A stretch of DNA of 64,000 nt. Origin: Eledone cirrhosa (taxonomy: Eukaryota). Made by a program: the position numbers and the translations under genes. The notes under the pieces are model-generated. The model was not told where the DNA came from, searched no databases, and saw only the letters and a program-made list of their open reading frames with translations. Positions 2,355 to 53,130 of the stretch are shown piece by piece. The stretch covers positions 134,292,001-134,356,000 of the forward strand of contig OZ024742.1 in the NCBI GenBank assembly GCA_964016885.1. Direction: 5' to 3'. Within the stretch, counting starts at the first letter, position 1, and every line of letters starts with the position of its first letter.

Positions 2355-2725
2355 CATATATATATGTGTGTGTGTGTGTATGTGTGCATATATATATATA
2401 TATATTCGTGTTTCCGTGTATGTGTGTATATATATATATATATTTAAACGGAAAAAAAATGAAACGAGATTTCATTTCCCACTCTTGGTGCGGCGGTTAC
2501 TTAAATATAAGTATGTACACGTACAGACATATATGTATACAGACGTGAAGTAGTATGTATATATATATATATATATATTCATACATGCACACATATATAT
2601 ATATGTACGTATGGATTCACCGAACATTTATTATAATGCTCGGTGAGTTTGTAAACAAACAACCCGTATTAAGCCGTAGTGTCCAGCAACCATCGTTGCT
2701 CGTTTGTTCAACACTGACAAAGGAA

Positions 2726-2766
2726 CACTGTACTAGTTTCAAGCTTATTAGCTATCATCGGCAACG
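2726..2766 (-). ncRNA. Hammerhead copy of the 430-nt unit (CCGATGA variant)
   Basis: Reverse complement: cgttg-CCGATGA-t-agct aata agct-t-GAAA-ctag-TA-cagtg. Confidence 0.65.
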
Positions 2767-3153
2767 TATACCTTCATGCCAGATTGTTGAACGTATATAC
2801 TTACCTTATGCATATTAACGGCTGAGTAGCCCAGTTTTCATATCGAGTGGGTTAAACGGCCGGGTGCACCGAAAACGATAAACGGAAAAAATGAAACGAA
2901 ATTTCATTTCCCACTCTTACTACGGCTGTTACTTAAATATAAGTATGTACATGTACATACATATATGTATACAGACGTACAGTAGTATGTATATATATAT
3001 ATACATACATACACACACATATATATATATATGTACGTGTCGATTCACCGAACATTTATTATAATGCTCCGTGTGTTTGTAAACAAACATCCCGTATTAA
3101 GCCGTAGTTTTCAGCAACCATCGTGCTCTTTTGTTCACGCTGAAAGAAGGAAG

Positions 3154-3192
3154 GCTGTACTAGTTTCAAGCTTATTAGCTATCGTCAGCAAC
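3154..3192 (-). ncRNA. Intact minimal type-I hammerhead ribozyme (430-nt unit)
   Basis: Reverse complement: gttg-CTGACGA-t-agct aata agct-t-GAAA-c-ta-g-TA-cagc; palindromic CUAG stem III; GUA triplet. Confidence 0.85.
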
Positions 3193-3672
3193 GTATACCT
3201 TCCTGCTAGATTGTTGAACGTATATACTTACCTGATGCATATTAACGGCTGAGTAGCCCAATTTGCATATTGAGTGGGTTAATCGGCCGGGTGCACCGAT
3301 AACGATAGACAGAAAAAATGAAACGAAATTTCATTTCCCACTCTTAGTTGGGCTGTTACTTAAATATAAGTATGTACACGTACATACATATATCTATACA
3401 TACGTACATATATATATATGTGTGCATGTATGTATATATATATATATATACATACTACTGTACGTCTGTATACATATATGTATGTACGTGTACATACTAA
3501 TATTTAAGTAACAGTCGTAGTAAGAGTGGGAAATGAAATTTCGTTTTATTTTTTCCGTTTATCGTTTTCGGTGCACCCGGCCGATTAACCCACTCGATAT
3601 GCAAATTGGGCTACTCATCCGTTAATTTGCATAAGATAAGTATATACGTTCAACAATCTGGCAGGAAGGTAT

Positions 3673-3715
3673 ACGTTGCTGACGATAGCTTATAAGCTTG
3701 AAACTAATACAGCGT
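3673..3715 (+). ncRNA. Hammerhead copy in the inverted arm (stem III G changed to A)
   Basis: acgttg-CTGACGA-t-agct tata agct-t-GAAA-ctaa-TA-cagcgt. Confidence 0.65.
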
Positions 3716-4053
3716 TCCTTTGTCAGTGTTGAACAAACGAGCAACGATGGTTGCTGGACACTACGGCTTAATACGGGATGTTTGTTTACAAACACATCGA
3801 GCATTATAATAAATGTTCGGTGAATCCATACGTACATATATATATATGTGTGCATGTATGTATATATATATACATACTACTGTACTTCTGTATATATATA
3901 TATATATATATAAATACATACTACTGTACGTCTGTATACATATATGTTTGTACGTGTACATACTTATATAGGTATATTTATATATATATATATATATATA
4001 CACATATATATATATATACATACACATATATATACATACATATACATACACAC

Positions 4054-11690: not shown

Positions 11691-13451
11691 TTTGAAACGG
11701 AGAACTAGTGGCGCTTCGAATAACATGTATTATACATATTACAATCCTTTCTCTGGCGACCAGCTCGAGACACGATCAATGCAATGTTCGAATCTGACGC
11801 TAAAGTCGCACCGGCGGCCTTCACTCGGCAACTTAAGTCCTGTTGTTGTCCTTCGATGAGTGGTCAAGAATTGTATACGTCATCGGTATTTTTGGATACT
11901 CCTGGCAGTCGTATATTTGGTTCCTTTCGTTTGCCACCTGTAAATCAAAGTTGTTTCTTATATCGGAATTACTACTGTAGCAGGTAATGGGTTGTATGAT
12001 TGAACTGCTCGTGCCGTGTCGCAGCATTCCCGGCCTGTAGGCGCCCACACCCATGTCTATATTTCGCGCAGGCATGATACATATGGGTACTTATGTACCC
12101 ACAATCATCACATACACACCCGTAACTGTATTATATATAACAATCACAGTAAATATTGAATGTTCAGCGAATACTTAGAAATAATCTTTTTAAAAATGGA
12201 AACACATTTAAACAAACCTTTCTGAAAAACACGCCCTCAAAATACCTTAAAAAACACACATTTAAAAGAAAAAGGCCCTATAAAAAGAACGGTTTTAAAA
12301 GAATGCTAGAAAAAACTATTTCAAAGGTATTTTTGATAAATATACAAATATCTACACACACACACTGTACAGGAAAGCATATATACATAAGACACGGCAC
12401 ATATATACAGATGTAAACATGGACAATCTACAAATACATATGCATACACCTACACAGACATGTTCATACAAATACATACACTCAGACCAGCATACCCATG
12501 CATGTATGAATATATGCGTGCACACACATACATGCAGCCGCGCATGGGCAAGCGCATGGGCATGCACATGAGCATGCTTATACATCTAAAAAAAGCACAT
12601 GCTTGATGAATACCTACACATCCATACAGACACGCAACTGTGCACATGGCGCATAAAATATCATATGAGACAACATTCTTGAGGCTTGGACTCAACCCAT
12701 TCATAGAGCCATATAAGCCTGAAAGTGCATGCAGAATATGCAGGAATGCAATAGCTACGTAGTAGGCTTGTGCTAATCACATATAGCATGGGGCAGGCAC
12801 ATATATAAATGCGTGTACGTACTTAAAATAAAATAAGATAAAATGCAATACTGGAAAAAAGGAATGTATACATAAAAGAGTTGCAAAGGAGGTATCTGTT
12901 CACGCCACCCGGATATTATTGGGATTTGCATAAAGTTGCATCAAATACTTGAAGACTGTCATGCATAGGGTTATATAAAATACTCGACTGACGATCCAAG
13001 GGACTGGGTACGAAACTGCACACCAACCATGCAAATGAGACAGGTTTCATGACGGGCGGACACAAGGGACCGTGTGTGTATATATACACAAACAACTTAT
13101 ATATATTGTGAATTTTTAGAATATCCTATTCATAATAGTATATATGAAATGTATATGGAATGGATGTATATATAGAATATATCGGGAATGTATAGAATAT
13201 GTGTTTCATAACAGTATATATGAAATGTACATGGAATGGATGCATAAATGGAATATACCAACGGCTTGTGTTTTAGGCATGCATATAGCAACTGTAGGCA
13301 AAGTTAGAATTAATTGCAACATTAACCTTAAGTCCAACATAAAGTTGCAAATTAAACATCAAGACTCGAAAAAAAAAACCATCAAGAATCGAAAATTAAA
13401 AATAAAAGATTAAAAATATTAAATAAAAAAATTCAAATTCAAATTGAAACC

Positions 13452-14180
13452 CACATATGGTTCAATGCACCATACTCGAAGCATGTATGGACTGACGTGC
13501 CAGGCCTCTTCTTCAGGGTATTGGACCAGTGTTTCCCGGCATCCTAGAGGTACCACAAAATATTCAACCGCCACACCGGGAAGTTCTCTTTTTCCACGGC
13601 ACCCAACCTGGCCGACTACATGGCCAAGGCCAACGGAATGAAAATGAGGACACCTCACCGACAAACTTTACAGGTCTCAGCCACGAAGGGGCGGCCGAGG
13701 AGAGCGCATGGAGAAGTGGCTAGTAGTTCTGGAGATGTGTCTGAGAGCGGAGCTGTGACCGTGGAGGACGCAACATTTGACAAAAGAGATCAGCAAGTGG
13801 TGAACACCGAGTCCTCCACTATGCCGGAACACCACATGGGGACCAGGGAGAACCCAAATAAGACGTCAGGCTCACATAAAGGGAATTACAAAAATGATGC
13901 ACGGACATGTAACTGCTGTGTGGGTTAGCATTGCCCTCTGCAGGGAATGTACCTGACAAAGGGCATTGTCTACAGGCGTGTGGTTAACACACAAAATGGT
14001 AGGCACACCTACATCGGGGCAACATCCACGACTTTTAAATCGAGGATGTACAACCACAAGAACTCGTTCAAAGACAGGAACAACAGACACTCCACCGGAC
14101 TGGCGGACCTAATATGGGGACTGAAGGACAGTGGCACGGAGTTTGACCTCAGCTGGAGTATTGTACGGCGCGCGAATGCG
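13452..14180 (+). mobile_element. Penelope-like element (Neptune-type) fragment: linker plus GIY-YIG endonuclease, with stops
   Basis: HIWFNAPYSK, FFRVLDQCFP, KIFNRHTGKFSFST, CNC..CPLQG..GIVYRRVV..TYIGATSTTFKSRMYNHKNSF..IWGLKD. Confidence 0.9.
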
Positions 14181-14186
14181 TGTTTT

Positions 14187-15058
14187 TTAAATGCTGGGTA
14201 AATATTCTATGGCTGTTGTTCGCGAATAGGTGGCTATCGTTTATTTATCTATTATTTCTTCACAGCTGCCTTTTAATCTTATATCCTGTTTTAATTGTTT
14301 TTTTGTGTGGTTAATTATGCTAATTGGGAGAGCAAATTGAGTATATATCTTATGAAATGATTCTAAGGACATAATTTATAGTATATTGTTCTGATTATTT
14401 AATTTATTAATTCATCATTGAGCCACATCGTGAATGGTTACCAAAACCATATCTATGACTTTGTCTAGTTTGTGTATATGTAAATCTTTATATTTGATAA
14501 TCTCCCATGAGTTGAGATGCAATTTAGGCAATATTAGACTGCGCTTTCTAGCAACCAGCCTACTAGCCGTAAGGTACCAGTCACATTATTTCTGACTTGA
14601 CCACTGCCACGTCACAGTTCTTAGCCATTTTAATCCGTTTCTGGCGGGGATCATTTAAGAAAAATATTTGTCCAAGTGAGTTTGTTTCCTGATGAGTTCG
14701 AAGTTCGAGTATTTATCTTTGATAGGATATTTCCGAAAGCGAACGAAACCCTAAAATGTAGGCACGTAATCCTGGTATGTGTATATGCAATTTTTCTTCT
14801 AACTTTAATTTTATACCTAATTGTGTATGGTTGACGATATATTTAATCGATATCCACGAGCTATTGAAATGCTGGGTAAATATTCTATGGCTGTTGAACG
14901 CGAATAGGTGGGTATCGTTTATTTATCTATTACTTCTTCACATGTGCCTTTTTAATCTTACAGCCTGGTTTAATCGGTATTTTGTGTGGTTAATTAAGCT
15001 AATTGGGAGAGGAAATGAGTATATATCTTATCAAATGATTCTAAGGACATAATGTATA

Positions 15059-15060: not shown

Positions 15061-15096
<36 letters not shown>

Positions 15097-15249
15097 ATAA
15101 ATGCTCTGAAATAGCGATATATATGTGAGTATAGACATAGAATATTCGAAAATATTCTGTATGTTTATAATAAACATTTTGAAGACCTAATCGCTATAGA
15201 ATAGAATACGTCACGTATTACAATTAGATTCTCGATAAAAGCAAGGGAA

Positions 15250-15292
15250 GTAATCTACGCGTTTCATTCTTGTTAGAATTCATCAGGACCAC
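15250..15292 (-). ncRNA. Minimal type-I hammerhead; identical copies start at 15560, 15870, 16180, 16490, 16800 and 17110
   Basis: Reverse complement: gtggtc-CTGATGA-attct aaca agaat-GAAA-c-gc-g-TA-gattac. Confidence 0.92.
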
Positions 15293-17441
15293 ATATCCAG
15301 TGCTTTTATCGAGAATGACACAGCTAGAGACTTATAGAATACTTAGCTGTGTACTGGAACTGGTTTGAAAGAGCGGTTGCCGGTCCGGCAGAAATTAGAA
15401 ATTGGAATAAATGCTCTGAAATAGCGATATATATGTGAGTATAGACATAGAATATTCGAAAATATTCTGTATGTTTATAATAAACATTTTGAAGACCTAA
15501 TCGCTATAGAATAGAATACGTCACGTATTACAATTAGATTCTCGATAAAAGCAAGGGAAGTAATCTACGCGTTTCATTCTTGTTAGAATTCATCAGGACC
15601 ACATATCCAGTGCTTTTATCGAGAATGACACAGCTAGAGACTTATAGAATACTTAGCTGTGTACTGGAACTGGTTTGAAAGAGCGGTTGCCGGTCCGGCA
15701 GAAATTAGAAATTGGAATAAATGCTCTGAAATAGCGATATATATGTGAGTATAGACATAGAATATTCGAAAATATTCTGTATGTTTATAATAAACATTTT
15801 GAAGACCTAATCGCTATAGAATAGAATACGTCACGTATTACAATTAGATTCTCGATAAAAGCAAGGGAAGTAATCTACGCGTTTCATTCTTGTTAGAATT
15901 CATCAGGACCACATATCCAGTGCTTTTATCGAGAATGACACAGCTAGAGACTTATAGAATACTTAGCTGTGTACTGGAACTGGTTTGAAAGAGCGGTTGC
16001 CGGTCCGGCAGAAATTAGAAATTGGAATAAATGCTCTGAAATAGCGATATATATGTGAGTATAGACATAGAATATTCGAAAATATTCTGTATGTTTATAA
16101 TAAACATTTTGAAGACCTAATCGCTATAGAATAGAATACGTCACGTATTACAATTAGATTCTCGATAAAAGCAAGGGAAGTAATCTACGCGTTTCATTCT
16201 TGTTAGAATTCATCAGGACCACATATCCAGTGCTTTTATCGAGAATGACACAGCTAGAGACTTATAGAATACTTAGCTGTGTACTGGAACTGGTTTGAAA
16301 GAGCGGTTGCCGGTCCGGCAGAAATTAGAAATTGGAATAAATGCTCTGAAATAGCGATATATATGTGAGTATAGACATAGAATATTCGAAAATATTCTGT
16401 ATGTTTATAATAAACATTTTGAAGACCTAATCGCTATAGAATAGAATACGTCACGTATTACAATTAGATTCTCGATAAAAGCAAGGGAAGTAATCTACGC
16501 GTTTCATTCTTGTTAGAATTCATCAGGACCACATATCCAGTGCTTTTATCGAGAATGACACAGCTAGAGACTTATAGAATACTTAGCTGTGTACTGGAAC
16601 TGGTTTGAAAGAGCGGTTGCCGGTCCGGCAGAAATTAGAAATTGGAATAAATGCTCTGAAATAGCGATATATATGTGAGTATAGACATAGAATATTCGAA
16701 AATATTCTGTATGTTTATAATAAACATTTTGAAGACCTAATCGCTATAGAATAGAATACGTCACGTATTACAATTAGATTCTCGATAAAAGCAAGGGAAG
16801 TAATCTACGCGTTTCATTCTTGTTAGAATTCATCAGGACCACATATCCAGTGCTTTTATCGAGAATGACACAGCTAGAGACTTATAGAATACTTAGCTGT
16901 GTACTGGAACTGGTTTGAAAGAGCGGTTGCCGGTCCGGCAGAAATTAGAAATTGGAATAAATGCTCTGAAATAGCGATATATATGTGAGTATAGACATAG
17001 AATATTCGAAAATATTCTGTATGTTTATAATAAACATTTTGAAGACCTAATCGCTATAGAATAGAATACGTCACGTATTACAATTAGATTCTCGATAAAA
17101 GCAAGGGAAGTAATCTACGCGTTTCATTCTTGTTAGAATTCATCAGGACCACATATCCAGTGCTTTTATCGAGAATGACACAGCTAGAGACTTATAGAAT
17201 ACTTAATACGTGACGTATTCTATTCTATAGCGATTAGGTCTTCAAAATGTTTATTATAAACATACAGAATATTTTCGAATATTCTATGTCTATACTCACA
17301 TATATATCGCTATTTCAGAGCATTTATTCCAATTTCTAATTTCTGCCGGACCGGCAACCGCTCTTTCAAACCAGTTCCAGTACACAGCTAAGTATTCTAT
17401 AAGTCTCTAGCTGTGTCATTCTCGATAAAAGCACTGGATAT

Positions 17442-17484
17442 GTGGTCCTGATGAATTCTAACAAGAATGAAACGCGTAGATTAC
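17442..17484 (+). ncRNA. Minimal type-I hammerhead in the inverted arm; second copy at 17752-17794
   Basis: gtggtc-CTGATGA-attct aaca agaat-GAAA-cgcg-TA-gattac; predicted cleavage after A17478 and A17788. Confidence 0.92.
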
Positions 17485-18138
17485 TTCCCTTGCTTTTATC
17501 GAGAATCTAATTGTAATACGTGACGTATTCTATTCTATAGCGATTAGGTCTTCAAAATGTTTATTATAAACATACAGAATATTTTCGAATATTCTATGTC
17601 TATACTCACATATATATCGCTATTTCAGAGCATTTATTCCAATTTCTAATTTCTGCCGGACCGGCAACCGCTCTTTCAAACCAGTTCCAGTACACAGCTA
17701 AGTATTCTATAAGTCTCTAGCTGTGTCATTCTCGATAAAAGCACTGGATATGTGGTCCTGATGAATTCTAACAAGAATGAAACGCGTAGATTACTTCCCT
17801 TGCTTTTATCGAGAATCTAATTGTAATACGTGACGTATTCTATTCTATAGCGATTAGGTCTTCAAAATGTTTATTATAAACATACAGAATATTTTCGAAT
17901 ATTCTATGTCTATACTCACATATATATATATATATATATAAAGTACAGTGAATTTTTTGAAATTTAATTTGAAACTTTTTTCTTATTTGCTAAACCTGGA
18001 TTTTAGTCTTCAAATTTATTATTATTACTATATATATATATATATATATATAGTAATAATAATAAATTTGAAGACTAAAATCCAAAGAGGGCCCGATAAG
18101 GATAAATATATATCAAATATATAAGAACCGTAGAGCAA

Positions 18139-18275
18139 ATATTTATTAAAATAACAGATTAAAGTTTAAGCAATGCATCGTTGCTTTCACCCATAACGGG
18201 ATCTTCTGAAACTCCAAAGATCACGTTAAGGGTGAAAGCAGCAATTCTTTGCTTAAACTTTAATCTGTTATTTTA

Positions 18276-18283
<8 letters not shown>
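18139..18283. repeat. 145-bp fold-back element with degenerate hammerheads on its arms
   Basis: 35-bp perfect inverted arms; minus strand 18164-18212 reads gttt-CAGAAGA-tccc gttat gggt-GAAA-gcaa..ttgc-TT-aaac. Confidence 0.65.
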
Positions 18284-18323
<40 letters not shown>

Positions 18324-18327
<4 letters not shown>

Positions 18328-18662
18328 AGCTAAATATACTATACATATTTATGTATACATCACTATTTCAGAGTAGCAATTCTAAAACCTAATTTTTGCT
18401 GAATCGGCAATCTCTCTCCGTATATTCAGCTCCAGATTATTATTGGAGTTCTATTAGAATGCTCTTATAATTTTCGGCGGAAGCAGGGGAGTGTGTGTCT
18501 CTGATGAACGTCAACCTGCGTGAAACAGACTGTCAGCCTCTCTCCTATCTTTCGCTGAAAATAAATAAGTGACATAGTCACTACTTTAAAACTGATAGCC
18601 TTTGGTGTTCTAAATGATTCTAATTAAACATACGGTATATTGCCAAATATACTATACACGCA

Positions 18663-18666
<4 letters not shown>
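18324..18666 (+). repeat. Single about 313-nt retrozyme-like monomer with terminal redundancy and an HHR
   Basis: aaatatactatac at 18332 and 18645; HHR core at 18501-18534; flanked by (TA)n. Confidence 0.75.
18486..18546 (+). ncRNA. Type-I hammerhead ribozyme (GUC triplet)
   Basis: ct-CTGATGA-acg tcaacctg cgt-GAAA-cagactg-TC-ag, with distal ggggag/ctctcc extending stem I. Confidence 0.75.
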
Positions 18667-18709
<43 letters not shown>

Positions 18710-18833
18710 CAAAGGAATTGAGGTAAGGAACCAGATGGACCATAACGCACCAGAGTACTCAATACTTAGGGTAGTAGATTCCAGAAATAGCCGTCGAAAC
18801 GGCTTGAGCTCTGCCGTCGGGGTCATACTTTTT

Positions 18834-18888
<55 letters not shown>

Positions 18889-36032: not shown

Positions 36033-39000
36033 GAATGCTATAGTTGACGGAGGCTCGGCTCTGTAAGGTATTGTAAATTTTGAACACTATAACAATTGTA
36101 AATTGTTTAAAACTTTAACGAACTTGTAGGCAAAAACACCCTCCTCCTCGTGAGAGGGGTCTTTCTGCCCGTTATTTGGCCCTTCGGGGTTAAATAACTG
36201 CTTATTGGGGTTTTGTACCCAATATTTATTTTAAACAAAAAAAAAAAAACAACATGGCTACGAAAAAGAAATTTCATAGGTAACTCCCACTCATTCCGTC
36301 TTCTTCTTCCTCAATCATCACTACAGCAGAGAGAGGATTGTCCCCCCCCCCTTCTTTAAATGTGTCTCTCTCCCTCCCTTCTCTTTCGCAAGCGACGAAA
36401 GAAAAGAAAAGTCTCGTGCAAAGCGTGCACGGTTTCTCCACGACGACGACGACAGCGACGAAACAGGTGTGCGGGAAATACGAAAACCCAGTTCATTCGT
36501 CTGACGTCAGGAATAATAGCAGTAGCAGCCGTAATAACAACAGCAACAGTGACAATGAAAACAACAGTAGCAGCCGCAACAGCATCACCAGCAGCATAAA
36601 CAACAACAGCATTAGCAACAGCAACACCAACAACAACCACAGCAACAGCGGCGGAGGCAGTAGTCGTAGTACCTGCAGCAACAACAAAAGTAACAGCAGC
36701 TCTGACGACAACAACAACAACAGCAGCAAAGAAAAACCAATCTCATTTGCAGGTATTGCGAAAAACTTGGAAACAATCCTCATAACAAATGAGGAATTAG
36801 AGGAAGCGAAGAAGATGGTGACAAAGACTGGACACCGAGCAATCTGCAAGGCAGCGGAAAAAAAAAAAAATTTTTTCGAAATCCAACAGCACTGTACGGT
36901 CACGTACCTTACAGTAAGTACAAAATCCCGTAGGGTGGAAAGAGCCACAGACGCTCAAATACAAAAAGCCTTGGGGTCTGTGTGGCAGCGGAAAACGCAC
37001 ATCACCCGAGGCAAAACATATGCCACCGTAGACGTACTTTTTGCCACACCCCAGGAGGCAAAGACCCAATCCGGAGTGACCCTAAGGAGCGAGGAAATGG
37101 TTTGGTGCCCTCCTACTGCTGGCAAAAAATAGTGAGGGTCAAACTGACCCACGTCCCCCCCGGGATGGTCCTTTCTTGGCTGGCCGCGTCTGTCCTCGTC
37201 GGAATCGAGGACAAAACAACTGTACTGCAAGTACAGGAAAAAGTAAGAGGAGATTGGGTCGGCACCTCCATTGAGATGCTAATCCAAACCATCGAAGCTA
37301 TCCCGGATGTGATAGACTTCGATAACGGCACTCAACTGCCCATAAGTTTTGAGGGAAAACGCCCGAAATGCTTTCGCTGTGGATCGAAGACTCACCTCAG
37401 GGCCTTCTGCAACGAGAACACCCTGAGAAAGGAGAAAACCCCCTCCTTCCGAAACCGGCTCCACAGCTACCAGCAACAGGACAAGCGGTTACCAGGAACG
37501 ATAGGTCCGTGGCACCCATACCCACGCCACGGAAATCAAAAACAGCAGCAGCAGTGGAAATATTAACAACAACAACAGCAATATCAAATGCAGCTGCAAC
37601 AGAGACTCCAGTGCAAACATCACCAACAACAACAAGTGAAAGAGTGGAGCTGGTACCCCTCCCCGACCTCACAGAATCAGACATGGAGTGTGAGGTGGGA
37701 GAGGGATGGCAAAAGGTCGTAAGAAGGCACAAACGCAGAAGCAGCGCATCGTCGCCTTTGAAAAGGGAGGAAAGAAATAAGAAAAGGCTAAAGTCTACTG
37801 CAAAGAGACCCACAGCAGCAACACCACCAACACCATCACCATCCACACTAGCACCACCATCACCACCGGCGACAACCCCACCGCCAACAACACCTTCAAC
37901 ACCACCACCACAAGCACCAACATCGCAAACACAACAACAAAACACACACACCCAGCAAAAACGACAAGAAAATAGCAGAAATAGTTATGCGGGCGTTGAC
38001 GTGGGCCATCGTCAACAACAAGTGGTGGTTTGCTCTGAAAAGAGCGATTAGAATAGAATCCATTAGGTTTAATAAGGCTTTAGCAATAGAGAAAAATAGA
38101 GCAGAGGGAGAACTAGTTAGAAAATTAGACGAGGCGCTTAGCAAAGGCATCGCGACCGACGTGCTTGCGGCGAAACTGGTCCTTGACCAATTCTTCAATG
38201 CAAAGCACGAAGGTTGCGTTGTCAGGGCAAGGGGGGTGCGTGCTCTCAGACACGAGGGGACGAAAGCCGTTCAATGGGCCCGAGTGGCGGAGGCGCGTCG
38301 TGGCAACAAAGCCACGATCCGGTCTTTGGTGGACAACGACGGGCGCATGATACTCGATCCCGGGCAAATGTATGAAGCTTTTCAGCGACACTTCGCTCAG
38401 CTGTTCGGGGGCAGCGGTGGGCCGGGTCGAGGGATGGACTTTAGTGTCTACCTCGACGGATTGCCGCGGCTCTCGGCCACTGAGGCGAAGTGTTGCGAAA
38501 AGCCGATAACTGCCGCTGAAGTAAGGGAGGCATTGACTGGCTGCACAAGGGGTAAATCGCCTGGTTTGGATGGTCTGCCCTATGATCTTTACGTACAGAT
38601 GCCAGACTTGTTCAGAGGCCTCTTAGCGGACGTCTACTGCAACTGGCAACAGAACGCGAGAATTCCCAGTTCTGTGAGCCGAGGAGCGGTGGCACTGCTG
38701 AGAAAGGATCCTAACAAGGGGGATAACATAGATCATTTCCGGCCCATAACTCTGCTAAACACAGAGTTCAAGATTTTGGCCAAGGTGCTAGCAAAGAGGT
38801 TGGCGCTTGTCGTTGGTTGTCTGGTGGGAGAGGCGCAGTCATGCGCCATTCCCGACACATCCATCCACGACAACCTCCACCTCATGCGATACATCGTAGA
38901 GAGGGTAGCTAAGGAACCTGGCACGGGTGGGTCCTTGATCAATTTAGATCAGTCGAAAGCTTTCGATAGGGTCGACCATCGTTACCTAGCGGCAGTCCTG

Positions 39001-40857
39001 AGGGCGGCTTGCTTTGGGCCCGTCTTCAGAGGCTGGATCGCTGCCATGCACAGCGACATCTGCTCTGTGGTGAGAGTGAACGGTCACCTGTCGGAACCGT
39101 TCAACATCATGCGCTCGGTCCGCCAAGGATGTCCCCTCTCGTCCCTCTTGTACGTATTGACTCTCGGGCCATTACTGCACAAACTGGAGACGTTGAGGGG
39201 CGTCCTGCGCGAACTAGGATGCGGAAGATCCGTGTCAGCGTATGCGGACGATGTCACCGTAGTGGTGTCGAACGCCAAACACATCGAGGCGATCGGCACT
39301 ACAATAAGAGAATACGAAGCGGTGACAGGAGCAATGATCAACCAGGAAAAGTCAGTGGGCCTGCAGCTCGGCACCTGGAGAGGAAGGTCCATGCCGTCCA
39401 ACAGCGTCGTCGGACGCTGGACGGACGGACCGGTTAAATTGCTAGGGGTCTGGTTCGGTCCGGACCTCCAGACGGACAAAAACTGGGACGAGGTGACGAG
39501 CAGGGTGGCTTCTCTCACCCAGAAATGGGCGGAGAGGAAGCTATCCCTGAAAGATCGAGCGGAGGTTGCTAACGCGTACATCGCGTCTGTCATCTGCTAC
39601 CGCCTGACCGTCGTACCTTGTCCTAAGCCTCGCCTGACTGCGCTGGAGCGTTTGCTCTTTCGCTTTTCGTGGAAGGGACGCGCTCCGATGGTCAGGCGGT
39701 CCATCTGTTGTCAACACCCGCTACGTGGAGGGCTGGGCATGCCGTGGCTGATAATGCGCAGGCACGCGCTCAGGCTACGACATCTCCACCTCTTCCTCGA
39801 CGGTGATCAGGTGTGGTCGCCGTTTGATAGACACGTATTTCCCCAGCTCGTTTCCTTGACGGAGCTGCAGTCCTGGGTCAAGCGAAGACCGAGAGGGAGC
39901 GCCTAAAGACTGGAATGTCTTCAGGCGCTCACAGCCCTCGACCAATCGGGCAATGTGATGGGTGGAAACTCCACCTCGGCGTTCTATAGAGGATTAGTGG
40001 AGGGGAAGAGCGACGACGTACTTGGGGAAAATCTAGGCGTCGACGAAAATCAACTAGCCAATCTCTTCGGAAGAACTTTCGGGCCAGGGCCTATGGACAA
40101 CTTCCAGAAATCTCTGGCCTGGCAGTGCTACCGAGGAGCCTTACCAGTTCGGGATATACTCTACAGGCATGGAGGTGCCGTCAGCCGGGCATGTCCGAGA
40201 TGCGCGCAGGGCGACGAAACCGTCCTGCACGCACTCGTCCAGTGTCCGAAAATTGCTGACTTGTGGGTTTATGTCGAACACCTGCTGTCGCGTTTAGGAC
40301 GGATCCGGCTATCATCTGAGTCCATCGTGAGGATTGCCCCGCCCTCCTCCTTTAGCCGGGAAGGGCAGGCAGTTTTTATCTGTCTGGTGGCCATGGCGAA
40401 AGAGATAGTATGGTGGACACGTTTGAAAGGGCTGAAGACGAGCACTTACCTCTTCGGTGATGCTCTGATTGACTTTTTCAAATTTCATTTGAAAAGGAAA
40501 ATCAGAGTAGAGAGGGAAATGCTCTCTTCCCAGTATTTACGAGAAAGATGGGTGAGAGAAGCAAGAATGGCCCGAGTGAATGGGCCTACTCTGAGTATGT
40601 ATCTGTAAATTAAAGGTGGAAAACTGGGAGAGGGCACTTGCCTTGGTGGTCAGGGTCATTTTGGCTTTTTACTTGGCTTTCTCCACAAATGTCCCTCCGA
40701 AGTCTCCCCCCTATTGGGGAATTTTTCATTGTTATTTTTTGTCACACCCTCTGTTTTTTGTTTTTTACACGCAGAAATGCCCATTTGTACCGTCCTGTTT
40801 TGTCCTGCACTGTCCTTAATGTCTACTTTATGTAAACCCTTGTGGTTAATAAAGAAA

Positions 40858-40860
<3 letters not shown>
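36033..40860 (+). mobile_element. Tx1/L1-type LINE copy 1 (APE domain deleted at about 37980)
   Basis: ORF1 CCHC knuckle CFRCGSKTHLRAFC; RT motifs KSPGLDG, DQSKAFDRV, VRQGCPLS, AYADD; C-terminal CPRC..ETVLHALVQC. Confidence 0.92.
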
Positions 40861-40901
<41 letters not shown>

Positions 40902-43900
40902 GAATGCTATAGTTGACGGAGGCTCGGCTCTGTAAGGCATTGTAAATTTTGAACACTATAACAATTGTAAATTGTTTAAAACTTTAACGAACTTGTAGAC
41001 AAAAACACCCTCCTCCTCGTGAGAGGGGTCTTTCTGCCCGTTATTTGGCCCTTCGGGGTTAAATAACTGCTTATTGGGGTTTTGTACCCAATATTTATTT
41101 TAAACAAAAAAAAAAACAACATGGCTACAAAAAAGAAATTTCATAGGTCACTCCCACTCATTCCGTCTTCTTCTTCCTCAATCATCACTACAGCAGAGAG
41201 AAGATTGTCTCTCTCCCTCCCTTCTTTAAATGTGTCTCTCTCCCTCCCTTCTCTTTCGCAAGCGATGAAAGAAAAGAAAAGTCTCGTGCAAAGCGTGCAA
41301 GGTTTCTCCACGACGACGACGACAGCGACGAAACAGGTGTGCGGGAAATACGAAAACCCAGTTCATTCGTCTGACGTCAGGAATAATAGCAGTAGCAGCC
41401 GTAATAACAACAGCAACAGTGACAATGAAAACAACAGTAGCAGCCGCAACAGCATCACCAGCAGCATAAACAACAACAGCATTAGCAGCAGCAACAACAA
41501 CAACAACCACAGCAACAGCGGCGGAGGCAATAGTCGTAGTACCTGCAGCAACAACAAAAGTAACAGAAGCTCTGACGACAACAACAACAACAGCAGCAAA
41601 GAAAAACCAATCTCATTTGCAGGTATTGCGAAAAACTTGGAAACAATCCTCATAACAAATGAGGAATTAGAGGAAGCGAAGAAGATGGTGACAAAGACTG
41701 GACACCGAGCAATCTGCAAGGCAGTGGAAACATTTTTTGAATCCCAACAGCACTGTACGGTCACGTACCGTACAGTAAGTACAAAATCCCGTAGGGTGGA
41801 AAGAGCCACAGACGCTCAAATACAAAAAGCCTTGGGGTCTGTGTGGCAGCGGAAAACGCACATCACCCGAGGCAAAAAATATGCCACCGTAGACGTACTT
41901 TTTGCCACACCCCAGGAGGCAAAGGCCCAATCCGTAGTGATCATAAGGAGCGAGGTAATGGTGTTGGTGCCCTCCTACTGCGGGCAAAAAATTGTGAGGG
42001 TCAAATCGACCCCCCCCCCCACCGAATGGCCCCTTCTTGGCTGGCCGCGTCTGTCCTCGTCGGAATCGAGGACAAAACAACTGTACTGCAAGTACAGAAA
42101 AAGTTAGAGAAGATTGGGTCGGCACCTCCATTGAGATGCTAATCCAAACCAACCAGGAGTGCATCGAAGCTATCCCGGATGTCATAGACTTCGATAACGG
42201 CACTTAACTGCCCATAAGTGTTGAGGGAAAACGCCCGAAATGCTTTCGCTGTGGATCGAAGACTCACCTCAGGGCCTTCTGCAACGAGAAAACCCTGAGA
42301 AAGGAGAAAACCCCCTCCTTCCGAAACCGTCTCCACAGCTACCAGCAACAGGACAAGCGGTTACCAGGAACGATAGGTCCGTGGCACCCATACCCACGCC
42401 ACGGAAATTAAAAACAGCAGCAGCAGTGGAAATATTAACAACAACAACAGCAATACCAAATGCAGCTGCAACAGAGACTCCATTGCAAACATCACCAACA
42501 ACAACAAGTGAAAGAGTGGATCTGGTACCCCTCCCGACCTCACAGAATCAGACATGGAGGGTGAGGTGGGAGAGGGATGGCAAAAGGTCGTAAGAAGGCA
42601 CACACGCAGAAGCAGCGCATCGTCGCCTTTGAAAAGGGAGGAAAGAAATGAGAAAAGGGTAAAGTCTACTGCAAAGAGACCCACAGCAGCAACACCACCA
42701 ACACCATCACCACCCACACTAGCACCACTATCACCACCGGCGACAACCCCACCGCCAACAACACCTTCAACACCACCACCACAAGCACCAACATCGCAAA
42801 CACAACAACAAAACACACACACCCAGCAACAACGACAAGAAAATAGTAGAACCACACCCCACCCCCAGAAAAACAAATGCACGGCAATAAATACACACAA
42901 CAAGAAACTAATGACTTACATAATTGAACACACAGACATTTCACAACACGACTACATAATACCAGCACCAATCAAAACACCAACTAACATAAGACTGCTA
43001 AAAATAGCACAGAAACAATACACAAACATTAAAACGAAATTCCCCAACGCAGTTGGTGATTTCAGGGACCTAGGAGGAACTATCAATCGAAGAGTATATT
43101 CAGACATTCTCATAGAAGAGCCGACGAACAGCCGAAGGGACGATTCAACGGTCCCTTCACCAGACGATCAAGTGAAAAGGGATGTAAAAACCATCCCTCC
43201 TCTACCAAAAGTACGGTAAGTGGTCTTTCCCATCTTTTCCACTCTATTTTAAACATGACCTCACTAAGAATAGGCAGCATAAATGCGCGTGGCTTGGGGT
43301 TGTCATGGGAGCAGGGTCACCTGCTCAACGACCTCAGGTCACTAAACATAGATGTAGTGGCCATCAGCGAGACCAGAATCTCCGAAGCACGGGCCTTCGC
43401 ACCGACCTTCGGCGGCTACGATGTGTACGCATCTCCCAGCCGTTCTGGATCGGGGGGCGGAGTTGCTGTGCTTTTTCGGAGAGGTTTGAATCTCGCCATA
43501 CGGGCCATCTTCCTGGACCCAGAGGGTAAGCTGGTGGTGCTGGACGTGACCAGCGGAGACGGGCAAGCTTTCAGGCTAGTGGCCGTCTATGCCCCGACAG
43601 GAGCAGGGAGGCCTGATTTCTTCCGGCGTCTGGAGACCTTTCTTGGAACGTCCCGCTCTTTAGTGTTAGTGGGCGACTGGAACGGGATCTTAGATGCACG
43701 GTGGGACTGTGTGGGATTAGCGGATAGGGGTGGAGGGTGCAAGAGCCTCACCAACCTGCTCAGGCGTTTTGAACTGTCTGACAGGTACCGATTGGATTTC
43801 CCGAATGTGCCAATGTGGACTTGGCAAATCGTATAGGGTCATCCAGATCATATCTAGATAGAGTATTTTGTAGGGAAATAGATAGGTCTAGCATAGGCTG

Positions 43901-45674
43901 TCCACAATTCAAGATAGTCAGCTACACGGACCACAAATTCGTGATCTGTGTGCTTGAATTAGATAGGCTTCATAGACGAGGACCCGGCTACTGGAAGCTA
44001 AACGCGTCCTTACCAGCGCGCAAGGCCTACAGAGACCGGATTAGCGAACTAGTTAAGCGGGCGTTGACGGGGGCCATCGTCAACAACAAGTGGTGGTTTG
44101 CTCTGAAAAGAGCGATTAGAATAGAATCCATTAGGTTTAGTAAGGCTTTAGCAATAGAGAAAAATAGAGCAGAGGGAGAACTAGTTAGAAAATTAGACGA
44201 GGCGCTTAGCAAAGGCATTGCGACCGACGTGCCTGCGGCGAAATTGGCCCTTGACCAATTCTTCAATGCAAAGCACGAAGGCTGCGTTGTCAGAGCAAGG
44301 GTGCGTGCTCTCAGACACGAGGGGACGAAAGCCGTTCAATGGGCCCGAGTGGCGGAGGCGCGTCGTGGCAACAAAGCCACGATCCGGTCTTTGGTGGAAA
44401 ACGACGGGCGCATGCTACTCGATCCCGGGCAAATGTGTGAAGCTTTTCAGCGACGATTCGCTCAGATGTTCGGGGGCAGCGGTGGGCCGGGTCGAGGGAT
44501 GGACTTTAGTGTCTACCTCGACGGACTGCCGCGGCTCTCGGCCACTGAGGCGAGGTGTTGCGAAAAGCCGATAACAGCCGCTGAAGTAAGGGAGGCAATG
44601 ACTGGCTGCACAAGGGGTAAATCGCCTGGTTTGGATGGTCTGCCCTATGAACTTTACGTACAGATGCCAGGCTTGTTCGGAGGCCTCTTGGCGGACGTCT
44701 ACTGCAACTGGCAACATAACGGGAGAATTCCCAGTTCTGTGAGCCGAGGAGCGGTGGCACTGCTGAGAAAGGATCCGAACAAGGGGGATAACATAGACAA
44801 TTTCCGGCCCATAACTCTGCTAAACACAGAGTTCAAGGTTTTGGCCAAGGTGTTAGCAAAGAGGTTGGCGCTTGTCGTTGGCGGTCTGGTGGGAGAGGCG
44901 CAGACATGCGCCATTCCCGACAGATCCATCCACGAGAACCTCCACCTCATGCGATACATCGTAGGGAGGGTAACTAGGGAACCTGGCACGGGTGGGTCCT
45001 TGATCAATTTAGATCAGTCGAAAGCTTTCGATAGGGTCGACCATCGTTACCTAGCCGCAGTCCTGAGGGCGGCTGGCTTTGGGCCCGTCTTCAGAGGCTG
45101 GATCGCTGCCATGCACAGCGACATCTGCTCTGTGGTGAGAGTGAACTGTGACCTGTCGGAACCGTTCAACATCATGCGCTCGGTCCGCCAAGGATGTCCC
45201 CTCTCGTCCCTCTTGTACGTATTGACTCTCCAGCCATTACTGCACAAACTGGAGACGTTGAGGGGCGTCCTGCGCGAACTAGGATGCGGAAGATCTGTGT
45301 CAGCATATGCGGACGATGTCACCGTAGTGGTGTCGAGGGAAGTGCTCTCTTCCCAGCATTTTGTTGAAAAATGGGTGAGAGAAGCAAGTATGGCCCGAAT
45401 GAATGGGCCTACTCTGAGTATGTGTCTGTAAATTAAAGGTGGAAAACTGGGAGAGGGCACTTGCCCTGGTGGTCAGGGTCACTGTGGTCTTTTAATGGGC
45501 TTTCTCCACAAATGTCCCTCGGAAGTCTCCCCCCTATTGGGGAATTTTTCTTTGTTATTTTATTTCATCCTCTGTTTTTTTTACACGCATAAATGCCCAT
45601 TTGTACCGTCCTGTATTGTCCTGTACTGTCCTTAATGTCTACTTTATGTAAACCCTTGTGGTTAATAAAGAAAA

Positions 45675-45675
<1 letters not shown>
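40902..45675 (+). mobile_element. Tx1/L1-type LINE copy 2 (deletion after YADD at about 45336)
   Basis: ORF1 at about 41121-43219; APE motifs SINARGL, ISET, VYAP, VGDWN, YLDRV, TDHK, YWKLN; RT up to AYADD. Confidence 0.93.
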
Positions 45676-45735
<60 letters not shown>

Positions 45736-45738
45736 TTT

Positions 45739-48357
45739 GAATGCCGTGGTTGACGGTGGCTCGGCTCTGTAAGGGATATTAATGTTTAACCGCTGTAACA
45801 ATTGTAAAACTTTAAAAACTTTAACGAAATTGTAGATAAAAACACCCTCCTCCTCGTGAGAGGGGTCTTTCTGCCAGTTATATGGCCCTTCGGGGTTAAA
45901 TAACCGCTTATTGTGATTTTGTGCCCAATATTTATTTTAAACAAAAAAACATGGCTACAAAAAATAATTTTCACAAGTCACTCACACTCATTCCGTCTTC
46001 CTTTATCTTCACTACAGCAGAGAGAAGATTGTCTCTCTCCCTCCCTTCTCTAAATGTGTCTCTCTCCCTCCCTTCTCTTTTGCAAGCGACGCCATGAAAG
46101 AAAAAGAAAAATTGAGTTTCTGATAGCGTTCACCAAGAGCACGTGCATTTCGTGGAACATTTCTCCACGACGACGACAACGATGAAAAATGTGTGCGGTA
46201 AATACGGAAAGCCATTTCATTCGTCTGACGTCATGAAGAATAGCAGTAGCAGCCGTAATAACAGCAGCAGCAGCAACAGTGACAAGGAAAACAGTAGTAG
46301 CAGCCGCAACAACATCAACAGCAGCAACAGCAACAACAACAGCAGCAGCAGCAACAACAACAACATCCGCAGCAACAGCGGCGGCGGCGGTCGTAGTACC
46401 AGCAGCAACAACAAAAGTAACAGCAGCTCTGATAACAACAACAAGAACAACAAGAAAGAAAAAACAATCTCGTTTACAGGTATCGCTAAGAACCTGGAAA
46501 CCATCGTCATAACAAATGAGGAATTACATGAAGCAAAGAAGATGGTGACGAAAACCGGACCAGCCGAAGCGACATATAATTTGTGGTGAGAGTGAACGGT
46601 CACCTTTCGGAACCGTTCAACATCATGCGCTCGGTCCGCCAAGTTTGTCCCCTCTCGTCCCTCTTGTACATATTAACTCTCAAGCCATTACTGCACAACC
46701 TGGAGACGTTGAGGGGGATCCCGCGCGAACTAGGATGCGGAAGATCCGTGTCAGCATATGCGGACGATGTCAGCGTAGTGGTGTCGAACGTCAAACGCAT
46801 TGAGGCGATCGGCACTACACAAGAGACGACGAAGCGGTAGCAGGAGCAATGATCAACCAGGAAAAGTCAGTGGGCCTGCAGCTAAGCACCTGGAGAGGCA
46901 GGTCCATGCCGTCCAACATCGTCGTCGGGCGCAGGACAGACGGACCGGTTAAATTGCTAGGGGTCCGGTGAGGTCCGGACCTCCAGACGGACAAAAACTG
47001 GGACGAGGTGACGAGCAGGGTGGCTTCTCTCACCCAGAAATGGGCTGAGAGGAAGCTATCCCTGAAAGGTCGAGCAGAAGTGGCTAACGCGTACATCGCG
47101 TCCGTCATCTACTACCGCCTGACAATCGTACCTTGTCCTTAGCCCAGCCTGACTGCGAGGGAGCGTTTGCTCTTTCGCTTTTTGTGGAAGGGAAGCGCTC
47201 CGGTGTTCAGGCGGTCCAACTGCTGTCAACACCCGCTACGTGGAGGGCTAGGCATGCCGTGGCTGATAATGCGCAGACACGCGCTCAGGCTACGACATCT
47301 CCACCTCTTCCTCGACGGTGATCAGGTGTGGTCGCCGTTTGCTAGACGCGTCTTTCCCCAGTTCGTCTCCTTGACGGAGCTGCAGTCCTGTGTCAAGCGA
47401 AGACCGAGATGGAGTGCTTGGAGACTGGAATGTCTTCAGGCGCTCACAGACCTCGACCAGTCGGGCAATGTGATCGGTGGAAACTCCACCTTGGCGTTCT
47501 ATAGAGGATTAGTGGAGAGAAAGAGCAACGACGTACTTGGAGAAACTGTAGGCGTCGACGAAAATCAACCAGCCAATCACTTCGGAAGAATTTTCGGGCC
47601 GGGGCCTATGGACAACTTCCAGAAATCCCTGGCTTGGCAGTGCTGCCGAGGAGCTTTGCCAGTTCGGGATAAACTCTACAGGCATGGAGGTGCCGTCAGC
47701 CGGGCATGTCCGAGATGCGCGCAGGTCGACGAAACCGTCCTGCACGCACTCGTCCAGTGTCCGAGCATTGCTGACTTGTGGGTTTATGTCGAACACCTGC
47801 TGTCACGTGTAGGACGGATCCAGCTGAGTCCATCGTGAGGTTTGCCCCGCCCTCCTCCTTTAGCCGGGAAGGGCAGGCAGTTTTTATCTGTCTCGTGGCC
47901 ATGGAGAAAGAGATAGTATGGTGGACACGTTTGAAAGGGCTGAAGACGAGCACTTACCTCTTCGGTGATGCTCTGATTAATTTTTACAAATTTCATTTGA
48001 AAAGGAAAATCAGCGTAGAGGGGGAAGTGCTCTCTTCCCAGCATTTTGTTGAAAGATGGGTGAGAGAAGCAAGTATGGCCCGAGTGAATGGGCCTACTCT
48101 GAGTATGTGTCTGTAAATTAAAGGTGGAAAACTGGGAGAGGACACTTGCCCTGGTGGTCAGGGTCACTGTGGCCTTTTAATGGGCTTTCTCCACAAATGT
48201 CCCTCGGAAGTCTCCCCCCCCCCCACTTGTTATTTATTGTTACATCCTCTGTTTTTTGTTTTTTTACACGCAGAAATGCCCATTTGTAACCTCCTGTATG
48301 GTCCTGTACTGTCCTTAATGTCTACTTTATGTAAACCCTTGTGGTTAATAAAGAAAG
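45739..48357 (+). mobile_element. Tx1/L1-type LINE copy 3 (large deletion joining ORF1 to RT at about 46560-46580)
   Basis: Diverged 5' UTR and ORF1 start, then RT 3' half, zinc finger and 3' UTR. Confidence 0.9.
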
Positions 48358-48438
48358 CATGCACTGGGTAATTGCTGGCCTTGTGCCAAAAGTAGAAACA
48401 TTTATTATTATTATTATTATTATTATTGTTATTGTTAT

Positions 48439-52030: not shown

Positions 52031-52916
52031 AAATAAACACACGGGCAGAAAGGGCCCCAAAAATGAATAAGCATAAGTTTCATTGTAATGTAGTATTCGA
52101 ATGTCTGACTTAGTTTTTGTTTTTTAAGTTTTACTTTTTCCCCCCTCTTCTCTGTCCGTCCGCCTGCTTCTCTCTTCATTCTTATTTTCTTTACGTTTTT
52201 GGGGTTTCTTTTTTTGTTTTTGTTTTTCTCTGTTTGTTTTTCTCGTTTTTTGCTGTTGTTGCTGTGCTGCTTTGGTTTTGTTGTTTGTTTTTTCTTTTTT
52301 CTTTTGAGTCTATCTATATATTTTGATGCCTTCCTCTTTGTTAGTAGTAGGGATTCTATAATGTGGAAGTAGTAGTAGCAGCCAGCAGGGAGAAGTGGGA
52401 GAGGGCGGCGTTGGCGATACTGAGACAGTGGTGGCGGTGATGCGACCGTATTACTGTAGTGATGGTGCTGTAGCGGTGGCAGCAGCAGTGAAGGAGTCAA
52501 GGGGTGGTGGCGGCGGTGATGGGATAGTGGTGGTAATGATGGCCGTAGTGAGCGGTGGCGGTGAACGTGAAAATGCTGTTGTGTTTAGTGTACACAGATG
52601 ATGGGGTGGGTGATGTATCTAGGTTATGGTGTTGGTGAGTTTATCTGTCCTATATAGTGTAGCCAGAGGAGAGGAGGGGGGGGGGGGTTCTTCTTCTTCC
52701 ATTTATAGCCATTTTTTTTTTGGATATACAGTGTACAATACAAAGTTGAATATTTGAATATTTGAGCCTTATAACAATATATTTTGGGTCCGAATTTTTT
52801 GGGGCTCAAGCCGGGTGCTTTACGTAGCATTTGTACTAAGAGTTGTTATTTCACAAATGATTTAAATATGTTAAAAATTCAAAACTTACGGGAGCGATTT
52901 CATGACCTCCGTCACC

Positions 52917-52918
<2 letters not shown>
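52030..52918 (-). mobile_element. Probable 5' end of a second Tx1-like family
   Basis: Starts after (AAT)n with tgacggag...ctcccgtaag, like the Tx1 5' motif; A-rich run then ATGGCT and low-complexity ORF1-like sequence. Confidence 0.45.
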
Positions 52919-52966
<48 letters not shown>

Positions 52967-52967
<1 letters not shown>

Positions 52968-53130
52968 GAGCGTCGGACGCCATGCTTTGCAACATGGAGT
53001 TACGGGCCTTTACTATCTGAGTTCAAATCCTGCCGAGGTTAACTTTACCTTTCATCCTTACGAGGTCGATAAAATAAAGTACCAGTAATGCACTGGAGTA
53101 ATTGCTGGCCTTGTGCCAAAAGTAGAAACA

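What the first reader, a model, noticed from the sequence alone, without database searches (positions are those of the whole stretch)
18324..18666. Second monomer of about 313 nt shares a module with the 310-nt family but has a different hammerhead
Seen: 18362-18418 (ctatttcagagtagcaattctaaaacctaatttttgctgaatcggcaatctctct) aligns with the 310-nt unit (ctatttcagagcatttattccaatttctaatttctgccggaccggcaaccgctct), yet the HHR differs (GUC triplet, acg/cgt stem II, cagactg stem III). Terminal redundancy gives a 313-nt period. Inference: unit size and a roughly 60-nt non-ribozyme module are conserved, possibly a promoter or RT-recognition element.
Basis: partly seen in the sequence, partly recalled or inferred. 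Interest (0 to 1): 0.7.

Follow-up and report, generated by a model that had tools for sequence, protein, structure and literature searches.

The report
Diverged solo copy of a retrozyme
This 313-base element is an aged single copy of a small self-cleaving-RNA retrotransposon, related along its whole length to the neighbouring 310-base repeat, so it is an ordinary new member of a known kind and not a separate ribozyme joined to a shared module.

Summary
In detail: 18363-18417 matches the 310-nt unit at 41 of 55 positions without gaps (0 of 1000 shuffles), a type I hammerhead is present, and the period is 313. The interpretation needs correcting. The two units are homologous throughout. Sequence outside the module also aligns (0 of 1000 shuffles), a second block (18595-18655) is equally conserved (47 of 62), and landmark spacings are 138/138, 33/30 and 142/142 nt. 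The whole 3-nt size difference lies in hammerhead stem III. The hammerheads are one ribozyme with compensated changes, not different ones. The module is not significantly better conserved than a best-of-unit window (p about 0.14), and it is absent from a third hammerhead family in the window and from the adjacent Penelope-like pLTR. Best reading: an aged solo non-LTR retrozyme of a sister subfamily, inserted into (TA)n, probably by a Hydra-clade Penelope-like element; a decayed one lies 3.3 kb away. Remaining lead: the 310-nt array ends at two sites that bracket the module's start, like the Penelope 'tail', so the module may be part of the RT/endonuclease-binding region. This is untested.

The parts
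18324..18666 (+). Solo retrozyme-like monomer M: one 313-nt unit plus about 30 nt of imperfect terminal redundancy, one hammerhead only
18280..18323 (.). (TA)n tract at the 5' side (insertion target)
18666..18708 (.). (TA)n tract at the 3' side
18363..18417 (+).
18396..18410 (+). Small hairpin inside the module, kept in both families (one C-G to U-G change)
18418..18469 (+). Linker, the least conserved part (19 of 50 aligned positions; not significant on its own, 516 of 1000 shuffles)
18470..18562 (+). Type I hammerhead domain with a 14-bp closing helix (18470-18483 with 18549-18562); against the 310-nt unit 8 pairs same, 4 compensated, 2 wobble, 0 broken
18501..18534 (+). Hammerhead core: CUGAUGA, 4-bp stem II with 6-nt loop, GAAA, 3-bp near-palindromic stem III, GUC with predicted cleavage after 18534
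18568..18582 (+). 6-bp hairpin with 3-nt loop; the 310-nt unit has a 6-bp/3-nt hairpin of different sequence 3 nt further on
18595..18655 (+). Second conserved block (47 of 62 columns), containing a 7-bp tetraloop hairpin at 18635-18652 and running up to the 3' insertion end
15091..17205 (-). 310-nt sister array U, minus arm, 6.8 identical copies, 7 hammerheads; 3' end at +165 from the cleavage site, inside the module
17204..17927 (+). 310-nt sister array U, plus arm, 2.3 copies, 2 hammerheads; head-to-head with the minus arm; 3' end at +131 to +139
13407..15058 (+). Decayed, 5'-truncated Penelope-like element: CxCX5C linker and GIY-YIG region with two in-frame stops, 678-nt partial tandem, hammerhead-like core at 14689, 3' end in the (TA)n tract shared with array U
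2445..3975 (.). Third hammerhead repeat family R (427-432 nt period), minus arm then plus arm, in TA-rich sequence; cores at 2761(-), 3188(-), 3679(+); lacks the module

Best explanation
The element is an aged, solo genomic copy of a non-LTR retrozyme from a sister subfamily of the 310-nt array; both descend from one ancestral unit. Shown from sequence: whole-unit homology, one shared hammerhead architecture with compensated stems, three further hairpins in the same positions, insertion in (TA)n. Inferred from published retrozyme and Penelope-like (PLE) work: a tandem master locus is transcribed; hammerheads (probably helped by pairing of the palindromic stem III between two copies) cut unit-length RNA; a host ligase circularises it; a Hydra-clade PLE protein nicks (TA)n DNA and reverse-transcribes from an internal site 125-165 nt downstream of the cleavage site. 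Going round the circle gives arrays (U, R) or, here, one turn plus about 30 nt. With one hammerhead this copy cannot release a unit-length RNA on its own and is probably a dead end. The module is the best-kept part of a roughly 130-nt non-ribozyme region around the priming site, not an independently mobile cassette.
For: Sequence outside the module aligns in register: score 43 against shuffle maximum 25, and the 3' part without any hammerhead core 26 against 23, both 0 of 1000. Spacings module-core 138/138, core-cleavage 33/30, cleavage-module 142/142. Closing helix keeps 14 of 14 pairs despite 10 changed bases; random placement does so in 1214 and 1509 of 2,000,000 trials. Hammerhead pairs over 5 sequences of 3 families: 45 of 50 cells paired, 5 of 10 pairs changed on both sides, slid registers 20-36% paired. 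Hammerhead domains fold at z -5.1 and -5.4. 3 of 4 non-ribozyme hairpins of U coincide with hairpins of M; 0 of 296 rotations and 3-25 of 3000 random-divergence trials reach this. Both arrays are head-to-head with 3' ends in TA-rich tracts, and U has two 3' ends 26-34 nt apart, matching the inverted 5' copy and 30-40 bp tail described for PLEs (PMC8557442 section 6). The neighbouring endonuclease fragment has the CxCX5C linker of the (TA)n-targeting Hydra clade. Two related retrozyme families with differing hammerheads in one genome are already published for axolotl (PMC7229834).
Against: Only two distinct sequences carry the module (the array copies are 100% identical), so all M-versus-U statistics rest on one pair, and the helix and hairpins tested were picked from those same sequences. 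Overall identity is modest (179 of 311 aligned columns); with a single gap only, identity outside module and core is 85 of 240, reached by 6 of 309 other registers, so small compensating indels are needed. M's predicted minimum-energy fold buries the catalytic core: the active fold is 12.5 kcal/mol higher and the first three core bases are unpaired with probability about 0.01; stem I has a U-C mismatch at the third pair. No sequence link between M and the neighbouring pLTR survives controls, so the mobiliser is inferred from insertion anatomy only. No Rfam hammerhead match at gathering thresholds. No expression data.
Confidence: 0.75

Rival explanations
1. The module is part of the binding site for the PLE reverse transcriptase/endonuclease, kept under primary-sequence constraint just 3' of the internal initiation sites. 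Compatible with the best explanation; it adds a function.
For: 3' ends fall at +124 to +132 (M), +131 to +139 and +165 (U); the module runs +142 to +196, so U's tail covers its first 24 nt, including an 11-nt invariant run. In the anole PLE, reverse transcription starts at internal sites, the tail lies between them, and RNA to about 55-60 nt beyond the start region is required (PMC11167929). The module is gap-free and poorly structured; uncorrected Fisher p=0.003 against the rest.
Against: After allowing for picking the best window, p about 0.14. Absent from family R and the neighbouring pLTR. The faint echoes in other (TA)n-inserted ends map to the upstream block (+50 to +78), not to the module, and are weak: 3-14 of 1000 in 4 of 24 tests. 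The anole element belongs to a different clade.
Confidence: 0.25
2. The module is an internal promoter (Pol III or snRNA type) that drives transcription of the unit.
For: Lies 138-84 nt upstream of the hammerhead core in both families. Precedent: schistosome satellite with a Pol III promoter and newt satellite 2 with an snRNA-type promoter, as cited in PMC2220036 (original papers not read).
Against: No exact A box, B box, octamer or TATAAA in either unit; one-mismatch A/B-box hits are not shared between them. A review states that metazoan retrozymes do not seem to carry promoters (PMC7761336 passage). The host's snRNA promoter consensus was not available to test.
Confidence: 0.12
3. Modular chimera: a shared cassette was recombined onto an unrelated hammerhead element.
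For: The linker between module and hammerhead is not significantly similar on its own (516 of 1000 shuffles); triplet, stem II and stem III sequences differ.
Against: Sequence on both sides of the linker is homologous and in identical register; the hammerhead closing helix is homologous with compensations; the linker has the same length in both.
Confidence: 0.05
4. The unit is a satellite or detached pLTR spreading at the DNA level (unequal crossover, cruciform-prone palindromes), with the hammerhead a passenger; the perfect inverted array may be partly an assembly effect.
For: Array copies are 100% identical; several hairpins are perfect DNA palindromes; 8 of 9 Xenopus retrozymes tested showed no cleavage (bioRxiv 10.64898/2026.07.22.740005).
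Against: The catalytic core is invariant while stems co-vary across three families; each insertion ends at (TA)n with PLE-type anatomy; family R shows the same inverted layout with copies only about 90% alike.
Confidence: 0.12

Closest known systems
Metazoan non-LTR retrozymes (Cervera and de la Pena 2020, PMC7229834)
   Same: Non-coding unit of 150-450 nt with a type I hammerhead, low GC, tandem relatives; weak palindromic stem III as in amphibian examples; two related families per genome as in axolotl (330 and 350 nt).
   Different: This copy is solo and aged; the family is inserted in (TA)n with PLE-type inverted arms and tail, which the parts of that paper I read do not describe; expression and cleavage untested here.
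Solo 'monomer' retrozymes derived from PLE pLTRs (Li, Clavereau, Pollet, bioRxiv 10.64898/2026.07.22.740005)
   Same: Monomers defined as probable non-transposing offspring of active arrays; mean family lengths around 310-340 nt in several groups; PLE partners proposed.
   Different: There 24 of 57 Xenopus families matched annotated elements (21 of 22 being PLEs); here no significant match to the neighbouring pLTR was found.
Hydra-clade Penelope-like elements (Craig et al. 2021, PMC8557442)
   Same: (TA)n insertion, hammerheads, partial tandems; the neighbouring fragment carries the CxCX5C linker.
   Different: M encodes no protein; it would be a non-autonomous passenger.
Poseidon element PAc of Anolis (Frangieh et al. 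2024, PMC11167929)
   Same: Insertion 3' ends at two adjacent internal sites downstream of the hammerhead, AT-rich targets.
   Different: Different clade; initiation there is in an AC-rich stem-loop inside the ORF and not homologous to the target, whereas ends here show short TA microhomology.

Membership tests
Metazoan non-LTR retrozyme | Type I hammerhead with intact core and stems I-III | tested here: met
   Core and stems located; covariation across 3 families. Caveats: no Rfam gathering-level match; U-C mismatch in stem I.
Metazoan non-LTR retrozyme | Unit of about 150-450 nt, GC below 50%, no coding capacity | tested here: met
   Period 313; GC 0.36 and 0.47 in the two modelled parts; no stop-to-stop frame of 120 aa or more overlaps it.
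Metazoan non-LTR retrozyme | Tandem arrangement with at least two hammerheads (active element) | tested here: not met
   M has one hammerhead, so it is a solo monomer; the sister array U (9) and family R (3) are tandem.
Metazoan non-LTR retrozyme | Self-cleavage and accumulation as linear and circular RNA | not testable with these tools
   In silico M prefers a fold that buries the core.
Metazoan non-LTR retrozyme | No LTR, PBS or PPT; target duplication if visible | tested here: inconclusive
   No LTR pair, only about 30 nt of redundancy; target duplication cannot be read inside (TA)n; PBS and PPT not searched.
PLE-derived retrozyme | Sequence similarity to a PLE pLTR | tested here: inconclusive
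   M against the pLTR: 215 of 300 shuffles as high. U against the middle pLTR: 0 of 300, but lost when split at the hammerhead core (169 and 165 of 500). Only one PLE was available.
Hydra-clade PLE (neighbour 13407-15058) | CxCX5C linker before a C-terminal GIY-YIG domain | tested here: met
   Motif present across an in-frame stop; Pfam GIY-YIG E=5e-4, 20.7 bits, below the 22.6 cut-off; 79 of the best 150 relatives carry CxCX5C.
Hydra-clade PLE (neighbour 13407-15058) | RT with RWK and DKT motifs; clade placement by RT phylogeny | not testable with these tools
   No PLE RT in the window (tblastn); the 713-aa relative P0010 has RWR, DKT and YRDD.
Hydra-clade PLE (neighbour 13407-15058) | Insertion into (TA)n and a canonical hammerhead | tested here: inconclusive
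   3' end in (TA)n; hammerhead core and 5-bp stem II present at 14689 but stems I and III are not convincingly intact.
Pol III internal promoter (module) | A box and B box | tested here: not met
   No exact match on either strand of either unit; one-mismatch hits not shared. The consensus patterns used are recalled.

The most novel reading that the evidence does not exclude
These (TA)n-targeted hammerhead repeats are the non-autonomous passengers of Hydra-clade PLEs, and the conserved region around their insertion ends (18595-18655 plus 18363-18417, contiguous on the circle) is the cis-element that the PLE protein binds and primes from. U's two 3' ends would then be the retrozyme version of the Penelope tail, giving a minimal natural substrate with which to test how PLEs copy circular RNA into tandem DNA.
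Probability: 0.25. Interest if true: 0.6.

Novelty: new member of a known kind. Interest (0 to 1): 0.3.

Why it matters
As a finding it is ordinary: retrozyme subfamilies and solo copies are published. Its value is as a natural comparison. Three hammerhead repeat families and a Hydra-like PLE fragment sit in (TA)n tracts of one window, and the arrays show PLE-type insertion marks. How retrozymes are recognised by their presumed PLE partner is an open question, and the conserved stretch around the insertion ends is a concrete candidate to test.

Tried and rejected
Chimera reading: rejected. Module as a stand-alone conserved island: not supported after correcting for window choice. Module in other elements: HMM and covariance model find nothing below E=0.9 outside M and U; against family R 77-995 of 1000 shuffles score as high. 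3' block against family R: top non-self hit in all three profile versions but E=1.1-3.9, and 89-811 of 1000 pairwise. A 12-nt word shared by the PLE's 3' end and M: 14 of 1000 under one scoring, 113 of 1000 under another, kept only as a lead. My first hammerhead scan missed M and family R because it demanded 3 stem I pairs and an unbroken stem II; the relaxed scan found them. Rfam low-score hits (microRNA families) follow the (TA)n tracts. The bacterial promoter scan is not applicable to a eukaryote. No match in phage genomes. Host not identified: protein searches returned almost only unnamed records; the named relatives of the endonuclease were from a sea cucumber and a ctenophore. Metagenome and viral contig collections stayed unchecked, and no eukaryotic genome collection was available, so other copies outside the window were not examined.

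Full report
Observation. The window is AT-microsatellite-rich, with several RT-bearing retroelement ORFs, i.e. eukaryotic; the host was not identified. The element M (18324-18666, +) sits between two (TA)n tracts. The hammerhead is as described: core at 18501, 4-bp stem II, 3-bp stem III, GUC, cleavage after 18534. The 313 offset is the best of 17 tried (20 of 30). The redundancy is near-exact over 16 nt and then diverges, mostly by transitions, some of a CpG-decay type (the decay reading is my inference), so M looks aged or came from mixed templates.

The relationship covers the whole unit. A local alignment runs over essentially the full length. Without the module, 18419-18640 scores 43 against a shuffle maximum of 25, and 18561-18640, which has no hammerhead core, 26 against 23 (both 0 of 1000); the hammerhead region gives 1 of 1000; the linker (516 of 1000) and the short 5' end (722 of 1000) are not significant alone. 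Landmark distances are 138/138 nt (module to core), 33/30 (core to cleavage) and 142/142 (cleavage to module), so the 313-versus-310 difference is the three extra bases in stem III. Small compensating indels are needed elsewhere: with one gap only, identity outside module and core is 85 of 240, reached by 6 of 309 other registers. MAFFT identity is 179 of 311 columns.

The hammerheads are one ribozyme. The 14-bp closing helix keeps every pair despite 10 changed bases (4 compensated, 2 wobble); random placement does this in 1214 and 1509 of 2,000,000 trials. The helix was chosen from these two sequences, so this overstates somewhat. A profile of M and U found a third family, R (427-432 nt period, 2445-3975; E=4.5e-4), with the same 14-nt stem II/loop II spacing and a palindromic stem III. 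Over 5 sequences, 45 of 50 cells pair and 5 of 10 pairs change on both sides, against 20-36% paired in slid registers (the sequences are related, so the shuffle counts are not probabilities). Stem III strands self-pair as dimers at -6.9 (M), -7.5 (U) and -4.8 (R) kcal/mol. Against activity of M itself: the active fold is 12.5 kcal/mol above the minimum-energy fold, the first core bases are predicted paired, and stem I has a U-C mismatch. Rfam reports nothing at gathering thresholds. Outside the ribozyme, 3 of U's 4 short hairpins have a counterpart in M within 4 nt (0 of 296 rotations; 3-25 of 3000 random-divergence trials).

Is the module special? It is the best stretch (41 of 55 against 138 of 256; Fisher p=0.003), but 2764 of 20000 column permutations give an equally good best window. 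The block 18595-18655 is as conserved (47 of 62 with two gaps; 39 of 61 ungapped; 36 of 63 in the MAFFT alignment), and on the circle the two blocks are joined by the TA-rich stretch where the insertions end. The module folds no better than shuffles (z -0.6, -0.8) and neither unit has an exact A box, B box or octamer. Only two distinct sequences carry the module, which limits every test.

Context and mechanism. A 5'-truncated, twice-stopped GIY-YIG fragment at 13407-14198 has the CxCX5C linker that Craig et al. give for Hydra-clade PLEs, almost all of which insert into (TA)n (PMC8557442 section 11). 2751 relatives score E<=0.001, and 79 of the best 150 have the motif. It ends, after a 678-nt partial tandem with a decayed hammerhead-like core, in the same (TA)n tract as U's minus arm. 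U and R are both head-to-head, 3' ends outward. U's ends lie at +131-139 and +165 from the cleavage site, M's at +124-132, R's at about +221 and +272 or slightly beyond. An inverted 5' copy and a 30-40 bp one-sided tail are PLE hallmarks, and the tail is the span between two internal RT start sites in the anole element (PMC11167929). I infer transcription of a tandem master, hammerhead cutting, ligation to a circle, and PLE-primed reverse transcription at (TA)n; M is one turn plus about 30 nt and, with one hammerhead, a probable dead end. None of these steps was observed. No robust sequence link to the neighbouring pLTR was found, so that particular element is a candidate kind of partner, not a proven one.

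Known work. Non-LTR retrozymes, their circles and a two-family case with differing hammerheads (axolotl) are in PMC7229834 (parts 2-4 of 6 read; its supplement could not be seen and may show similar invertebrate units). Solo monomers and PLE origin are in bioRxiv 10.64898/2026.07.22.740005 (parts 1-3 of 5; supplements not seen). PMC8557442: passages and sections 6 and 11. PMC11167929: parts 1-2 of 4. PMC7761336, PMC2220036, PMC13282606: passages only. The newt and schistosome promoter papers were seen only as citations. Seven searches listed no paper whose title or abstract start describes a mapped RT-recognition element in an animal retrozyme or (TA)n-targeted retrozymes; most listed papers were not opened and subscription papers are not covered.

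Verdict. Observation confirmed; interpretation partly supported. A new member of a known kind, interest 0.3. The surviving idea, that the conserved region around the insertion ends is the PLE-binding element, has about a 1 in 4 chance and would deserve about 0.6.

Noticed in passing
window 2445-3975: A third hammerhead repeat family (427-432 nt, about 90% alike, head-to-head arms, U-U at the base of stem II, two of three copies with a core or stem III change) that may not have been reported; one or more copies carry an octamer-like word upstream of the ribozyme (seen by eye, label recalled).
   Followed up: partly
window 13407-15058: Decayed Hydra-like Penelope element with a 678-nt partial tandem and a hammerhead-like core with a 49-nt stem II region, ending tail-to-tail with array U in one (TA)n tract.
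   Followed up: partly
window 15091-17927: About nine 100% identical 310-nt units in an inverted arrangement, junction at 17204-17205 with arms starting at unit positions +221 and +36: a very recent insertion or an assembly effect.
   Followed up: partly
window 17941-18279: Two short elements meet tail-to-tail at a (TA)n tract with identical 32-nt ends (44-nt perfect palindrome arms); the end resembles U's 3' block weakly (3-14 of 1000 shuffles). 18139-18283 is a 67-nt inverted repeat with a degenerate hammerhead-like core on the minus strand (E=3.9).
   Followed up: partly
window 15034-15045 and 18612-18623: A 12-nt word is shared by the PLE's 3' end and M's 3' block; 14 of 1000 shuffles under one scoring, 113 of 1000 under another.
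   Followed up: partly
window 36070-48440 and 48494-52970: Tandem about 4.9-kb RT-bearing retroelements with zf-RVT, separated by (ATT)n tracts, and an inverted 1139-aa relative: apparently another microsatellite-targeting family.
   Followed up: no
window 18709-18835: A 127-nt GC-richer spacer between two (TA)n tracts, unrelated to M, U or the pLTR in shuffle tests.
   Followed up: partly
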